From a virus: a stretch of DNA of 44,693 nt. Of this stretch, positions 11,486-40,599 are shown piece after piece; position 1 is the stretch's first letter; every line of letters begins with the position of its first letter. Position numbers and translations under genes: made by a program. Where the stretch lies: the UHGV virus genome UHGV-0200912; one strand, given 5' to 3'. The notes beneath the pieces are model-generated. The model made no database searches. It saw only the letters and a list, made by a program, of their open reading frames with translations, and was not told where the DNA came from.

Positions 11486-11500
11486 GTGCTTGTTTCTTAA

Positions 11501-11545
11501 TGGCACGCCCTACAGGATTCGAACCTGTGACCTACGGCTTAGAAG
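11501..11545 (-). other. attP core: 45-nt copy of the 3' half of a tRNA-Arg(UCU) gene, anticodon loop to CCA
   Basis: reverse complement reads CTTCTAAGCCGTAGGTCACAGGTTCGAATCCTGTAGGGCGTGCCA, closely resembling the E. coli argU 3' half; the upstream part cannot form an anticodon stem, so it is a fragment and not a gene. Confidence 0.7.
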
Positions 11546-38026: not shown

Positions 38027-38532
38027 TTCTGCCCCCAAAGACAAACTTCGCGCTCAATCTCGCGGCGAGTTACCAGACCCTTCCACTGCTTACCCTTGGC
38101 GTAGGTCCAGCGGCGCAGCTGATCACATGCACCTTTCTGGTCGCCCTGGTTGATTTTGCGCAGCAGAGTGGAGGTCTGGAAGTTCCCAGCGCCGACGTTA
38201 TAGGCGAATGAGTAAAGCGCCCCGCGCATTGTCTCGGGAATCGTCTTCTGGATGTATGGGTTAATCTGGCGAGCGACGGTATTCAGGTCTTTGCTGAGCA
38301 GCGCACGGCATTCAGCCTCGGTGTACTTCTTGCCGAGCATGATGTCTTTGCCAGTGTGGCCATAGCAGACAGTCCAGACGCCTACCACATCCTGATAGGG
38401 GTCATAACGCACACCTTCAAGACCATCGTTACCGGTTGGTCCAGTGATGAGAGCAGAGGCAATGGCTATGGCGCCACCGCCGCCGGCGATCACGCCAATC
38501 AGTTTATTCCTCATTGATGGCGTCATGCTCAC
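38023..38532 (-). CDS. SAR-endolysin, GH24 T4-lysozyme family
   Basis: Gly/Ala-rich N-terminal signal-anchor [19 protein letters not shown]; catalytic E-D-T region [23 protein letters not shown]. Confidence 0.8.
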
Positions 38533-38843
38533 CCCTGTGTATCACTTGCGATCCGCTTCAAGGCCTCGGTTACCACTTCGGCTGAAGCCGGGCGGTCACC
38601 CCCAGGCTTTGCGGAGACATCAGCCAGATAACTGGCCAACAGCTGCGTGCGCTTTTTCTCTTCATCCAGTCGCTCTCGCTCTTCCTTGCGCTTTGCGTAA
38701 TACGTCTTGATTGTGAAGAAGGCAGAGATCAGGGCGCCAATGATGAAGACATAATCCTGCAGACTCAGGACGGAAAAGATACCAAGCAATGCTGACCACC
38801 AGTAAGGCAGATTGTGACCATCGGTTGGGTTCATACGTTGCAT
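38529..38843 (-). CDS. holin, likely pinholin partner of the SAR endolysin
   Basis: two TM helices; charged C-terminus; GGAGGTGAGAG RBS; ATGA overlap with the endolysin. Confidence 0.65.
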
Positions 38844-38950
38844 CTCTCACCTCCGATAATGTTCGGGGTGCTATCTGTAGTCAGTAAAAGGTTCAGGGCC
38901 GTCGGGCTGATTTACCAACAAAGCGTCGAGGGTGATTCCCGCGACCCTGA

Positions 38951-38975
38951 AAATAAAAAACCCGCTCAAGGCGGG
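38951..38975 (-). terminator. rho-independent terminator between the late leader and the holin
   Basis: CCCGC-cttga-GCGGG followed by TTTTTTTATTTT on the minus strand. Confidence 0.6.
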
Positions 38976-39233
38976 AAGAAATACCAAGGGTAAAAGCGAC
39001 GGCTCGGTAGCCGTAATAGTCCCAAGGTAGAGGGATTTAGAAGGCTGCAGCATAACTATCACTGGTGATGCAGGATAGCCAGTTAGGGCTGCAGCTCGGT
39101 TCCGTGAGTGGTGGCCGGCGCTGATCTCCGGCTTTCTCTGGCATTACAGGTACCCAAGACTATTCTCCAGAGATAGCGCTGTCCTCATCAAGGGGTGCCG
39201 TCTCTAACGTATCAGCCTACGCATTCACCACAA

Positions 39234-39250
39234 CGGAAAGAGCACTGGTT
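39234..39250 (+). repeat. CGGAAAGAGCACTGGTT, copy 1 of a 17-nt exact repeat, each copy closing a long-range stem
   Basis: identical copy at 39477..39492; resembles the D-arm CCGGAAAGAGCA of the adjacent tRNA-Arg. Confidence 0.5.
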
Positions 39251-39476
39251 TGGCTCGACATCAGATAGGGTGGAACAGCCCTCAAATGCCCAATGCTCTT
39301 ACCTGTTGTGTGCCCATTATTAATCACACCGGGCCAGTGCGCCGAATTCATTGACAAGGAGTCGGAAGACCTTGCTGGTGTTTAGCTGTTAGGCTACTGC
39401 CAGATACATTTCTTCGTTTGCATTTATCTTTGTGGTCAGTTTCTAAAAAACCGCAAAGTCGCTTACGAAAACCATC

Positions 39477-39492
39477 GGAAAGAGCACTGGTT
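39477..39492 (+). repeat. copy 2 of the 17-nt repeat
   Basis: exact repeat. Confidence 0.5.
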
Positions 39493-39546
39493 GCATTTAA
39501 GCCAAGCCCCATGACGGGAAGCGCTCTTGCCTGATAGCCTTCAATC

Positions 39547-39623
39547 TGGCGCACCATTCAGGACTCGAACCTGAAACCGATAGCTTAGAAGGCTATTGCT
39601 CTTTCCGGTTGAGCTAATGGCGC
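39547..39623 (-). tRNA. tRNA-Arg (anticodon UCU)
   Basis: GCGCCATTAGCTCAACCGGAAAGAGCAATAGCCTTCTAAGCTATCGGTTTCAGGTTCGAGTCCTGAATGGTGCGCCA; 7-bp acceptor, D, anticodon (CTTCTAA) and T arms; CCA encoded. Confidence 0.85.
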
Positions 39624-39628
39624 TGAAT

Positions 39629-39706
39629 TGGTGCTCGCATCAGGGATCAAACCTGAAATCATCCGATTATGAGTCGGGTGCTTTAACCTTGTTAAGCTAT
39701 GCGAAC
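39629..39706 (-). tRNA. tRNA-Met or tRNA-Ile2 (anticodon CAU)
   Basis: GTTCGCATAGCTTAACAAGGTTAAAGCACCCGACTCATAATCGGATGATTTCAGGTTTGATCCCTGATGCGAGCACCA; T-loop GGTTTGATCC; anticodon loop CTCATAA. Confidence 0.75.
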
Positions 39707-39711
39707 AATCT

Positions 39712-39775
39712 GGTTCAGGGCTCTGCGCGTGTAGGGTGTCGACGTGTCGTGCAGCACGTCTCTACCCAAGAGCCC
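39712..39775 (-). other. nested stable hairpin (9-bp outer CAGGGCTCT/AGAGCCCTG, 6-bp inner GACGTG/CACGTC) between tR' and the tRNAs
   Basis: direct reading; no tRNA features. Confidence 0.5.
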
Positions 39776-39791
39776 TGACCGGATCGCAGGC

Positions 39792-39820
39792 ATAAAAAAG
39801 CCCCGGCGGAATGCCGAGGC
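39792..39820 (-). terminator. tR'-like rho-independent terminator downstream of the Q-like gene
   Basis: GCCTCGGC/GCCGGGGC stem then TTTTTTA on the minus strand. Confidence 0.6.
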
Positions 39821-39909
39821 TAATTTTACAAACTGGTATGTGACTATCATCTTCATGCCGCCACTTAAAGTTAAGGCAGCATATCAAAGTAGACTCAAAT
39901 ATGACGCAT

Positions 39910-40599
39910 TTAATCCAGTTTTGCAAGAGTTGAGTGAAAATTTGTCGCCTTTTGTTGTGAACGTGATCGCGTAACCTGCAAAAGAGAATCGCTATCAAGG
40001 CGCCGCAAGGTGGTTTTCATCTCCTCCCACCGCTCTGTAAACGTTTCTGACCAGTTCTTCGGGGTCACTCCGACCAGAGAGGCAAGTTTTTGGTATTCAT
40101 ACGTCTCCCGCCCTGCCAGCTCGGCTTTGACATCCTGCGCCGCCAGCCAGATAAGTTGACGGAGGCGATCGACTGTTTTCTTTGCAATGCGCGCGCCGGC
40201 CAGCTTCTTGCTGAATTGCTCCCATGCCCACCGGGTGATCGTCTCCTGGTGCTCCCAGCGGATATTGTCGCTGTAGTTCCACAGCAGCCACGTTTTCTGA
40301 TGCTCTTCCAGCGACAGTAGAGCCCGGCGCCAGCTTGCCGTCGAATACTCAACGGGAAGAACGAGAGCGATCGATGAACCCTTAGCGCGGGACTGGCTGC
40401 CACTCATTGGCGGCCCGTCCGGGTTAACCATGCGTTGTTTCACCTCGCTATAAACCTTCTTCCTTCCCCGGCTGCGCGCCGTAGCGGTGAATTGCGCGTT
40501 TTCTGCAAAGGCTACCAGTTGCCCTTTCGTCGCACCGCTCAGATCGGCGGTGGCCACTATCAGCTGCTGGCGAACAAATTCCAAGTATTGAGCTGTCAT
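39910..40599 (-). CDS. putative late antiterminator, Q-like by position
   Basis: 229 aa between NinG and the tR'/tRNA/lysis region; ATGA overlap with the upstream small ORF. Confidence 0.45.
   Translation of the reverse strand: MTAQYLEFVRQQLIVATADLSGATKGQLVAFAENAQFTATARSRGRKKVYSEVKQRMVNPDGPPMSGSQSRAKGSSIALVLPVEYSTASWRRALLSLEEHQKTWLLWNYSDNIRWEHQETITRWAWEQFSKKLAGARIAKKTVDRLRQLIWLAAQDVKAELAGRETYEYQKLASLVGVTPKNWSETFTERWEEMKTTLRRLDSDSLLQVTRSRSQQKATNFHSTLAKLD

What the first reader, a model, noticed from the sequence alone, without database searches (positions are those of the whole stretch)
38844..39910. Unusually long structured non-coding late leader with duplicated tRNA D-arm-like motif, nested hairpin, two tRNAs and three terminators
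About 1 kb between the Q-like gene and the holin carries no convincing ORF. On the minus strand it reads: tR'-like terminator (39792..39820), 64-nt nested hairpin, tRNA-Met(CAU), tRNA-Arg(UCU), then 570 nt holding two exact copies of CGGAAAGAGCACTGGTT (39234 and 39477), then a strong terminator (38951..38975) 100 nt before the holin. Each repeat copy closes a long-range stem (AAGAGCACTGG...CCAATGCTCTT). The repeat matches the D-arm of the adjacent tRNA-Arg but lies on the opposite strand with no T-loop. These could be decayed tRNA genes or structured sRNAs. In Stx phages this interval is a hot spot for tRNAs and cargo.
Basis: seen in the sequence. Interest (0 to 1): 0.55.

Follow-up and report, generated by a model that had tools for sequence, protein, structure and literature searches.

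The report
Phage tmRNA-like gene with anti-tmRNA leader
The "empty" kilobase between the phage's late-gene activator and its lysis genes holds two tRNA genes and an unannotated 248-base RNA gene: a copy of the message part of the bacterial ribosome-rescue RNA (tmRNA), preceded by a leader that is antisense to the host's own tmRNA, so the phage may block or re-programme host ribosome rescue.

Summary
The interval (window 38844-39909, minus strand) has no supported ORF. It holds two terminators, a nested hairpin, two tRNAs and an exact 17-nt repeat.

The repeat is not a decayed tRNA. It is the 3' strand of two hairpins that flank a 248-nt tmRNA-derived gene (39476..39229).

That gene has:
- a 10-codon tag frame (ANEEMYLAVA, then stop);
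- a helix-5-like stem and two pseudoknots, all supported by covariation;
- a long terminal stem with a hypervariable cap;
- no tRNA-like domain.

ARAGORN at default settings and Rfam miss it. Relatives occur in 785 phage records (Felixounavirus, Ackermannviridae, Schitoviridae, P1, Klebsiella siphophages), about 1,290 plasmids and 784 of 5,426 complete E. coli genomes. They are never annotated and usually lie in tRNA clusters. All 133 copies examined keep exactly 10 codons plus a stop (17 different peptides).

The conserved single-stranded 5' leader is antisense to host tmRNA nt ~68-106 (3' strand of pseudoknot 1, resume codon, codons 2-6). Shuffles reached its score in at most 6 of 1,000 for each of ten leader types tested. 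The K. pneumoniae target is identical to E. coli's here.

Best reading: a late-expressed RNA that anneals to host tmRNA and blocks, and possibly replaces, its tag template. The replacement step is inferred, not shown.

The parts
39910..40599 (-). Antiterminator Q gene (context)
   Evidence: Pfam PF06323 Phage_antiter_Q, E=3.7e-84.
39792..39821 (-). tR'-like intrinsic terminator
   Evidence: 9-bp G+C-rich stem plus U-run. Folds at -18.5 kcal/mol, z -4.7. In related prophages the same kind of terminator lies 12 nt upstream of the upstream hairpin.
39711..39778 (-). Nested hairpin (10-bp outer stem) followed by ACCA; function unknown
   Evidence: Inverted repeat I4. Folds at -34.4 kcal/mol, z -4.3.
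39629..39706 (-). tRNA with anticodon CAU (Met by ARAGORN; near-identical relatives are annotated tRNA-Ile)
   Evidence: ARAGORN; Rfam tRNA 58.1 bits; annotations of relatives.
39547..39623 (-). tRNA-Arg (UCU)
   Evidence: ARAGORN; Rfam tRNA 66.2 bits.
39477..39531 (-). Upstream flanking hairpin (GGCAAGAGCGCUU...CCAGUGCUCUUUCC). Its 3' strand is repeat copy 2 and it ends where the tmRNA-like RNA begins.
   Evidence: In virulent phages a sigma70 promoter occupies this position instead.
39422..39476 (-). 5' leader: single-stranded and antisense to host tmRNA nt ~54/68-107
   Evidence: RNAalifold finds no internal structure. The reverse complement aligns to K. pneumoniae and E. coli ssrA with SW score 27, against 15 +/- 2 for shuffles (0-1 of 1,000 reach it). 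The predicted duplex is -45.6 kcal/mol with 40 pairs.
39389..39421 (-). Tag reading frame: GCA AAC GAA GAA ATG TAT CTG GCA GTA GCC TAA = ANEEMYLAVA*
   Evidence: Read from the sequence. All 133 family members have 10 codons plus a stop, giving 17 peptides. Sub-threshold Rfam tmRNA and tmRNA_permuted alignments cover it.
39375..39403 (-). Helix-5-like stem-loop holding the stop codon (CUGG...CCAG)
   Evidence: 99.8% canonical pairs in 106 distinct sequences, 39% or less when the partner is slid, with compensatory changes.
39342..39374 (-). Pseudoknot PK2-like: stem CAAGG/CCUUG; loop CCGA pairs with the downstream UCGG
   Evidence: Stem 1 is 99.2% canonical and stem 2 is 99.8% canonical. Pair types seen include GC, AU and CG.
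39312..39341 (-). Pseudoknot PK3-like: stem CGCAC/GUGUG; loop GCCC pairs with the downstream GGGC
   Evidence: Stem 1 is 99.4% canonical, including an invariant G.U pair that fixes the strand. Stem 2 is 85% canonical and covaries in Ackermannviridae.
39229..39310 (-). Terminal long stem (CACAAC-A-GG-U-AAGAGCAUUGG / CCAGUGCUCUU-U-CC-GUUGUG) with a hypervariable cap. Its 3' strand is repeat copy 1.
   Evidence: Folds at -33.4 kcal/mol, z -3.9. There are 56 distinct upper stems with many compensatory variants, and a U.G wobble is kept in 48 of 56. Caps run from 26 to 144 nt in 80 distinct hairpins.
39090..39234 (-). Downstream conserved module of unknown role: GUUGUGGUG ... hairpin GCCGG-AGAUCAGCG-CCGGC ... 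CACCAC
   Evidence: Shared with KP591P1, MK54, UPM2146, L048 and L094. MK54 covaries (GUAGG/CCUAC). The fold is not better than shuffles.
38953..38975 (-). Intrinsic terminator upstream of the holin gene
38529..38843 (-). Holin gene (context)
   Evidence: PF16080 match below the Pfam cut-off (24.9 bits against 28.8, E=2e-5). Near-identical relatives are annotated as holin.

Best explanation
The interval is a late-operon cargo region. It carries two rare-codon tRNAs and a 248-nt tmRNA-derived RNA gene (39476..39229, minus strand) that lacks a tRNA-like domain.

Shown:
- The RNA keeps tmRNA's message module: an AUA at -6 to -4 before a GCA resume codon, a 10-codon tag ending in a hydrophobic Ala-rich C-terminus, a stop codon inside a helix-5-like stem, and two pseudoknots.
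- It ends in a long stem-loop.
- Its roughly 50-nt single-stranded 5' leader is complementary to host tmRNA from the 3' strand of pseudoknot 1 through the resume codon to codon 6.
- The leader is not complementary to the phage's own tag region.

Inferred:
- After Q-mediated read-through of tR', the RNA is transcribed together with the tRNAs and released at the flanking hairpins.
- The leader anneals to host tmRNA and masks the host tag template, as synthetic anti-ssrA oligonucleotides do in vitro.
- Most speculatively, ribosomes entered by host Ala-tmRNA-SmpB then resume on the tethered phage frame. This would add (A)ANEEMYLAVA in place of (A)ANDENYALAA.

My estimates: tmRNA-derived family about 0.9; antisense pairing with host tmRNA in vivo about 0.6; template substitution about 0.35.
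For: - Tag frame: 133 of 133 copies have 10 codons plus a stop, giving 17 peptides. All four Ala codons occur at the last position.
- Structure: the helix-5-like stem, PK2 and PK3 stem 1 are at least 99% canonical in 106 distinct sequences with double compensatory changes, against 71% or less when the partner is slid. Invariant G.U pairs fix the strand.
- Homology: Rfam gives sub-threshold hits to tmRNA, tmRNA_permuted and beta_tmRNA across the tag, helix 5 and PK2.
- No tRNA-like domain: ARAGORN at default settings calls nothing in the window, and the window holds no other acceptor piece.
- Leader: no internal structure. The reverse complement of ten leader types aligns to ssrA nt 68-106 with SW scores of 22-42, against 14.7 +/- 2.2 for shuffles. 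Shuffles reached the score 0 times in 1,000 for eight types, and 1 and 6 times for the other two. The same-sense control scores 12-19.
- All 56 distinct leaders hit the same ssrA site.
- Host duplexes average -41 kcal/mol and own-tag duplexes -25. The own-tag duplex is never the stronger in 74 combinations.
- The K. pneumoniae ssrA target is identical to E. coli's. For it the score is 27 and 0 of 1,000 shuffles reach it.
- The antisense signal is confined to 39485-39455.
- Virulent phages drive the RNA from their own TTGACA-17-TAnAnT promoters, so it is a gene and not a lambdoid leader.
- Anti-tmRNA oligonucleotides suppress tmRNA-dependent release in vitro (PMC3384345).
Against: - There is no expression, processing or interaction data.
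- Measured by duplex energy alone, the window's leader is only about 4 sd better than shuffles, and 1 of 300 shuffles matches it.
- No natural case is known of a tmRNA template supplied in trans through base pairing.
- Annealing would unfold host pseudoknot 1, and a 35-40-bp duplex might instead trigger RNase III cleavage.
- The conserved U.G wobble in the terminal stem and the conserved downstream module are not explained by this model.
- Salmonella ssrA differs by one base in the core target (GAAACC rather than GAAAAC), yet FelixO1 keeps UAGUUUUCG.
- The 2025 tmRNA database lists 79 phage tmRNAs whose identities I could not see.
Confidence: 0.5

Rival explanations
1. Self-sufficient two-piece tmRNA. 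The hypervariable cap of the terminal stem is an intervening sequence that is cut out. This leaves ..AGCAUUG as a 3' acceptor strand and CAGUGCU.. as a 5' acceptor strand, with a G3.U70-like wobble for alanyl-tRNA synthetase. CCA would be added after transcription.
For: - A U.G wobble in the motif GCAU/GUGC is kept in 48 of 56 distinct stems while the lower stem covaries.
- Caps are unrelated in sequence and run from 26 to 144 nt, as expected for an excised spacer.
- The nearest Rfam relatives are permuted, two-piece betaproteobacterial tmRNAs.
- One cap type carries a hammerhead-like motif.
Against: - There is no T-arm between PK3 and the putative acceptor strand.
- No CCA is encoded after ..CAUUG.
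- The number of pairs above the wobble varies from 0 to 4 in nearly all of the 48 stems that have it.
- Some virulent-phage variants have a plain stem without the motif.
- Neither ARAGORN nor Rfam recognises a tRNA-like domain.
- The model does not explain the antisense leader.
Confidence: 0.12
2. Pure antisense inhibitor or sponge of host tmRNA. The leader shuts down host trans-translation or triggers RNase III cleavage of tmRNA. The tmRNA-like body only provides stability, protein binding or ribosome proximity, and its tag is not translated.
For: - The leader is complementary to host ssrA.
- Antisense oligonucleotides against tmRNA work in vitro.
- There is a phage precedent for interfering with tmRNA: the domain-only tmRNA of mycobacteriophage DS6A, a form reported to inhibit tmRNA (PMC4131195, PMC11915505).
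Against: - The tag shows peptide-level conservation: a fixed 10-codon length, a stop codon always present, synonymous variation, and a conserved AN[DE] start and A/V-A end.
- The conserved AUA before the resume codon is also hard to explain if the frame is never read.
Confidence: 0.22
3. One reading: the repeats are decayed tRNA genes or generic structured sRNAs in an unusually long late leader, unrelated to tmRNA.
For: - An 11-nt match to the tRNA-Arg D-arm in inverted orientation.
- T-arm-like motifs occur in about 15 of 80 caps in relatives.
- The element lies among tRNA genes in most phages.
Against: - No tRNA call at the repeats.
- The stem covaries as a simple helix.
- The sequence between the repeats is a tmRNA-like module under structural and coding constraint.
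Confidence: 0.03
4. The hairpins are primarily DNA-level module boundaries, that is, recombination hot spots that shuffle cassettes (tRNAs, the tmRNA-like gene, homing endonucleases) between phages. This complements the RNA model rather than excluding it.
For: - Homology with relatives breaks exactly at the repeat copies. L001 and L004 resume at 39247, and the virulent-phage segment spans 39476..39291.
- The hairpin occurs without the tmRNA-like core in L001 and L004.
- RothC has a homing endonuclease gene in this slot.
- The tRNA pair is bounded by an 8-bp direct repeat, CCAGATTG.
Against: - Compensatory changes between the two arms indicate selection on RNA or single-strand pairing.
- No recombinase is associated with the element.
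- The cores do not fit integron attC consensus (judged by eye).
Confidence: 0.1

Closest known systems
Bacterial tmRNA (SsrA; Rfam RF00023)
   Same: - A GCA resume codon preceded by AUA at -6 to -4.
- A 10-codon AND/ANE...A(A/V)A tag.
- A stop codon inside a helix-5-like stem, followed by pseudoknots.
   Different: - No acceptor stem, T-arm or CCA, and no pseudoknot 1.
- About 250 nt instead of 363.
- Its 5' end is an antisense copy of host tmRNA nt 68-106.
- It scores far below the Rfam threshold (12-29 bits against 47).
Permuted (two-piece) tmRNA of Betaproteobacteria (RF01850, RF04321) and the two-piece tmRNA of an OM43 methylophage (PMC9004378; title and abstract listing only)
   Same: It gives the best Rfam alignments across the tag, helix 5 and PK2. 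It is also a phage-borne tmRNA variant.
   Different: The known permuted forms have a recognisable acceptor piece with a T-arm and CCA. None is present here.
Mycobacteriophage tmRNAs and the domain-only tmRNA of phage DS6A (PMC4131195, PMC11915505)
   Same: They are phage-encoded tmRNA derivatives. DS6A keeps only one half of tmRNA, and a similar molecule has been shown to inhibit host tmRNA.
   Different: DS6A keeps the tRNA-like half. This family keeps the message half and adds an antisense leader. The hosts here are Enterobacterales.
Synthetic anti-ssrA (anti-tmRNA) oligonucleotides used in cell-free translation and ribosome display (PMC3384345)
   Same: They are complementary to the tmRNA tag-coding region. 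The phage leader motifs UAGUUUUCGUC and GCGACU cover the same target.
   Different: The phage version is natural, RNA, and fused to a replacement tag template.
ileZ-argN-argO tRNA cluster and sRNAs in the late leader of Stx phages
   Same: The same genomic slot (Q - tR' - tRNAs - lysis or cargo genes) and the same pair of rare-codon tRNAs (Ile2 and Arg-UCU).
   Different: As far as I know, no tmRNA-like gene has been described there.

Membership tests
tmRNA (SsrA) | Tag reading frame that starts at an Ala resume codon with no start signal and ends at a stop codon | tested here: met
   GCA...TAA with 10 codons in the window and in 133 of 133 relatives.
tmRNA (SsrA) | Frame-setting nucleotides upstream of the resume codon (U-5 and A-4 in E. 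coli; my own knowledge) | tested here: met
   AUAAAU|GCA in the phage against AAUAGUC|GCA in the host. The AUA at -6 to -4 is shared, including in the divergent SS9 copy.
tmRNA (SsrA) | Helix 5 with the stop codon, followed by pseudoknots | tested here: met
   Covariation for the helix-5-like stem, PK2 and PK3. No counterparts of pseudoknots 1 and 4 were found.
tmRNA (SsrA) | tRNA-like domain: 7-bp acceptor stem with G3.U70, T-arm, 3' CCA | tested here: not met
   ARAGORN at default settings finds none. With thresholds relaxed to 80% it borrows the T-arm of tRNA-Arg. There is no T-arm or CCA at the terminal stem and no acceptor piece elsewhere in the window.
tmRNA (SsrA) | Reaches the Rfam gathering score for RF00023, RF04321 or RF01850 | tested here: not met
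   Best scores are 19.4 bits in the window and 29.4 bits in relatives, against thresholds of 47-84.
   No ARAGORN or Rfam tRNA hit at 39229-39310 or 39477-39531 on either strand. The element folds as a single long stem.
trans-acting antisense RNA against a host RNA | Extended complementarity to one defined target site, conserved across divergent homologues and absent for the RNA's own paralogous site | tested here: met
trans-acting antisense RNA against a host RNA | Demonstrated duplex formation and effect in vivo | not testable with these tools
   Needs RIL-seq or CLASH, gel shifts and genetics.

The most novel reading that the evidence does not exclude
The phage RNA is a 'tmRNA hijacker'. 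It has no tRNA-like domain of its own. It tethers itself by about 35-40 base pairs to the host's alanyl-tmRNA, masks the host tag template, and presents its own resume codon 9-16 nt beyond the duplex (the host spacing is about 11 nt). Rescued ribosomes would then add a phage-specified tag. This would be the first natural case of trans-translation whose template is supplied in trans by a parasite. The family is widespread in Enterobacterales phages and phage-plasmids.
Probability: 0.3. Interest if true: 0.95.

Novelty: new variant of a known kind. Interest (0 to 1): 0.8.

Why it matters
tmRNA-SmpB is the main ribosome-rescue system of bacteria and a drug target, and it is needed for the growth of some phages. 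This family is conserved and unannotated. It occurs in model and therapeutic phages (FelixO1, P1, Vi1-like, N4-like and Klebsiella phages) and in about 14% of complete E. coli genomes. That suggests phages routinely manipulate ribosome rescue with an RNA.

If the leader pairs with host tmRNA, it is a natural anti-ssrA RNA. If its tag is used, the fate of rescued proteins during infection is set by the phage.

There are practical consequences too. ARAGORN and Rfam miss these genes or mis-call them, so phage annotation pipelines should model the family. The hypothesis is directly testable by Northern blots, mass spectrometry for the tag, and RIL-seq.

Tried and rejected
- Decayed tRNA at the repeats: rejected.
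- Protein-coding cargo: the six longest ORFs in the interval have no PHROG match.
- Canonical or permuted tmRNA:
  - ARAGORN at default settings finds nothing. At 80% thresholds it builds chimeras that use the tRNA-Arg T-arm.
  - No T-arm lies upstream of the upstream hairpins; a terminator or a promoter lies there instead.
- Variable caps as tRNA-like domains: caps are unrelated even between close relatives (87 nt in KP591P1, 31 nt in MK54), and T-arm-like motifs occur on either side or in either orientation.
- Internal pairing of the 5' leader (a pseudoknot 1 equivalent): no covarying helix and an empty RNAalifold prediction.
- A separate acceptor RNA complementary to the leader elsewhere in the window: none found.
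- Integron attC or MITE interpretation of the hairpins: the cores do not fit by eye and no recombinase is nearby; not pursued.
- My broad regex census of the GCAU/GUGC motif was too permissive to be informative.
- The all-pairs covariation list was dominated by phylogenetic noise and was replaced by helix-level tests.
- Hammerhead-like cap in L054 and L103: it does not reach Rfam thresholds.
- Literature searches (9 of the 10 allowed) for the tag peptides, phage tmRNA-like RNAs and antisense to tmRNA found no description.
Full report
**Context.** On the minus strand the window reads NinG, Q antiterminator (39910-40599; PF06323, E=3.7e-84), a 1,066-nt interval, then holin, lysozyme and Rz. The holin call rests on a sub-threshold Pfam match and on the annotation of near-identical relatives. 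BLAST shows the region belongs to Klebsiella-type lambdoid prophages.

**Check of the observation.**
- The interval holds only short ORFs, and none matches a PHROG family.
- ARAGORN and Rfam find two tRNAs: CAU at 39629-39706 and Arg-UCU at 39547-39623. Near-identical relatives of the CAU tRNA are annotated tRNA-Ile.
- Two intrinsic terminators are present and fold well (39821..39799 and 38975..38961). I found no third.
- The nested hairpin at 39778..39715 is real (z -4.3) and is followed by ACCA.
- The 17-mer CGGAAAGAGCACTGGTT occurs exactly twice, at 39234-39250 and 39476-39492. Each copy closes a stem, and 11 nt match the tRNA-Arg D-arm in inverted orientation.

**What the repeat is.**
- Local BLAST against relatives shows that homology breaks at the repeat copies. 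Prophages L001 and L004 resume at 39247. The segment 39476..39291 is 97% identical to a stretch of the virulent Klebsiella siphophage KP591P1 and 86% identical to MK54, where it lies next to their tRNA clusters.
- Aligning these showed a conserved core flanked by a stem, GGUAAGAGCAUU...AGUGCUCUUUCC, whose interior differs completely between phages.
- The stem extends to about 17-20 bp. It is supported by many compensatory variants:
  - CACC-AA-UGAGAGCAUU / AGUGCUUUCA-UUC-GUGG;
  - CAACUGUAACGACGCUUC / GGAGCGUCGUUACAGUUG;
  - GAUAAUUGCAUUG / CAGUGCAAUUAUC;
  - FelixO1: AACAUU-CU-AAAGGGUAU / GUACCCUUU-AA-AAUGUU.
The D-arm resemblance follows from the stem being nearly palindromic.

**The core is tmRNA-like.**
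- Between the hairpins lies GCA AAC GAA GAA AUG UAU CUG GCA GUA GCC UAA, which encodes ANEEMYLAVA. The E. coli SsrA tag is ANDENYALAA.
- The core has BLAST matches in 785 phage records. These include Felixounavirus, Kuttervirus and Taipeivirus, Schitoviridae, Akiravirus, Mooglevirus, Kolesnikvirus, P1 and Klebsiella siphophages. The matches almost always carry no annotation and lie beside tRNA genes.
- In 133 copies the frame is always 10 codons plus a stop. There are 17 peptides, all AN[DE]... and ending in a hydrophobic A/V-A. Codon changes are synonymous, including all four Ala codons at the last position.
- In 106 distinct sequences the following are at least 99% canonical with double compensatory changes, against 71% or less when the partner is slid: a helix-5-like stem that holds the stop codon, a PK2-like pseudoknot, and stem 1 of a PK3-like pseudoknot. 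Invariant G.U pairs fix the transcribed strand.
- Rfam gives only sub-threshold hits (tmRNA, tmRNA_permuted, beta_tmRNA). The best alignment runs across the tag, helix 5 and PK2 of the betaproteobacterial model.
- ARAGORN finds nothing at default settings. At relaxed thresholds it reports the same tag but borrows a tRNA's T-arm. In phage HP1 it emits an implausible 749-nt 'tmRNA*'.

**No tRNA-like domain.**
- No T-arm or CCA accompanies the terminal stem in the window.
- Caps are unrelated even between close relatives.
- T-arm-like motifs occur in about 15 of 80 caps, at inconsistent positions.
- Upstream of the RNA there is either a sigma70 promoter (virulent phages) or a hairpin that itself follows a tR'-like terminator (prophages). 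There is never an acceptor piece.
- A U.G wobble in the motif GCAU/GUGC is kept in 48 of 56 stems. If the cap were excised this would mimic G3.U70, which I keep as a rival model. The varying number of pairs above the wobble, the lack of CCA and the lack of a T-arm argue against it.

**The leader is antisense to host tmRNA.**
- The first ~55 nt show no conserved internal structure, yet they are highly conserved.
- The invariant motif UAGUUUUCGU is the exact complement of ACGAAAACUA in the host tag-coding region.
- The reverse complements of ten leader types align to E. coli ssrA nt 68-106. This stretch covers GCCGC of pseudoknot 1, the A-rich linker, the resume codon G90 and codons 2-6.
- Smith-Waterman scores are 22-42, against 14.7 +/- 2.2 for shuffles. 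Shuffles reached the score 0 times in 1,000 for eight types, once for the window's type and six times for one other. Same-sense controls score 12-19.
- All 56 distinct leaders target the same site.
- The window's leader forms a predicted 40-pair duplex of -45.6 kcal/mol. Shuffled leaders give -31.0 +/- 3.6, and 1 of 300 is as low.
- The leader pairs much less well with the phage's own tag region: mean -25 against -41 kcal/mol, and never better in 74 combinations. The phage tags differ from the host tag at exactly the codons the leader covers.
- K. pneumoniae ssrA, recovered from a chromosome filed in PLSDB, is identical to E. coli's across the target.
- A sliding scan shows the antisense signal only at 39485-39455, and sense homology only around the resume codon.
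- DNA oligonucleotides complementary to tmRNA are a standard way to suppress tmRNA-dependent release in vitro (PMC3384345).

**Mechanism.**
- Shown: the gene's architecture, its conservation, and the complementarity.
- Inferred:
  - late co-transcription with the tRNAs after Q-mediated read-through of tR';
  - release at the flanking hairpins;
  - annealing to host tmRNA;
  - masking of the host template;
  - most speculatively, use of the phage frame by ribosomes entered by host Ala-tmRNA-SmpB.
- The phage resume codon lies 9-16 nt beyond the predicted duplex (my estimate). The host resume codon lies about 11 nt beyond pseudoknot 1.
- The peptide-level constraint on the tag favours translation over a purely inhibitory role.

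**Distribution and novelty.**
- The core matches 784 of 5,426 complete E. coli genomes. Of 837 places, 687 are on plasmids of P1-like and larger phage-plasmid size.
- It also matches 1,287 PLSDB plasmids, 1,243 of them non-mobilisable.
- Nearly every listed match lies under no annotated feature; the one exception is a 'hypothetical protein'.
- Species-representative genomes gave six hits.
- The tmRNA database papers name phage tmRNAs only for mycobacteriophages, Bacillus phage G and DS6A. They count 79 phage sequences whose identities I could not see.
- No paper in the library contains the tag peptides or describes a phage antisense to tmRNA.
- I therefore rate it a new variant of a known kind (a tmRNA derivative), with a possibly new mechanism.

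**Unexplained.**
- The conserved U.G wobble in the terminal stem.
- The hypervariable caps.
- The downstream conserved module at 39234..39090.
- The ACCA-tailed nested hairpin.

Noticed in passing
window 39706-39713 and 39542-39549 (minus strand): The tRNA(CAU)/tRNA-Arg pair is bounded by an 8-bp direct repeat, CCAGATTG. Related loci without the tRNAs (L025, L078, L111) have a single copy joining the same flanks. This suggests insertion or loss of a 164-nt tRNA cassette by microhomology.
   Followed up: partly
window ~11490-11530 (minus strand): A tRNA 3' half (anticodon-loop-like CUUCUAAG, T-arm GGTTCGAATCC, ...GTGCCA) that ARAGORN does not call as a gene. It may be an attachment-site remnant of a tRNA-Arg-type integration site.
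   Followed up: no
L054 and L103, cap of the terminal stem (sequence shown): The cap contains a hammerhead-like arrangement: GCGCGCC-CUGACGAG-stem-CGAAAC-stem-GUC-GCGCGG. It does not reach any Rfam gathering score.
   Followed up: partly
L009, L017, L071, L088, L137 (Ackermannviridae), 3' of the tmRNA-like core: A conserved ~125-nt tRNA-like element with an acceptor stem (GCCGUUA/AAACGGC), a T-arm (GGGUUCGACUCCC) and an encoded UCCA. SS9 and L071 carry a second mini tRNA-like element ending in CCCA. ARAGORN calls neither. Position 3:70 is C-G, not G.U.
   Followed up: partly
L003 (Klebsiella phage RothC) 1756-2295: An annotated homing endonuclease gene occupies the slot between tRNA-Arg and the holin gene, where the window has the tmRNA-like gene.
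   Followed up: no
L014 (Citrobacter phage HP1) 20-768: ARAGORN at default settings reports a 749-nt 'tmRNA*' with tag ANDNVFLAVA that spans three tRNA genes. This is an artefact, but it shows how the family can surface as odd tmRNA calls in phage annotations.
   Followed up: partly
L088 1118-1331 (minus strand); L022 1709-1862 (minus strand): Rfam hits above gathering score to STnc100 (48.7 bits) in a Taipeivirus-like contig, and to SIB_RNA (98.6 bits) in a prophage contig. Both lie near the tmRNA-like gene but are separate from it.
   Followed up: no
window 39597-39607 versus 39234-39244 and 39476-39486: The 3' strands of both hairpins are 11-nt perfect complements of the tRNA-Arg D-arm on the same transcript. 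They could pair in the precursor. I cannot say whether this is chance or has meaning.
   Followed up: no
L146 (Salmonella ssrA) versus the FelixO1 and Kuttervirus leaders: Salmonella ssrA has GAAACC where E. coli and Klebsiella have GAAAAC in the leader's core target. Kuttervirus and Taipeivirus leaders read AGGUUUUCG and FelixO1 reads UAGUUUUCG. A possible host-specific tuning was not tested systematically.
   Followed up: partly
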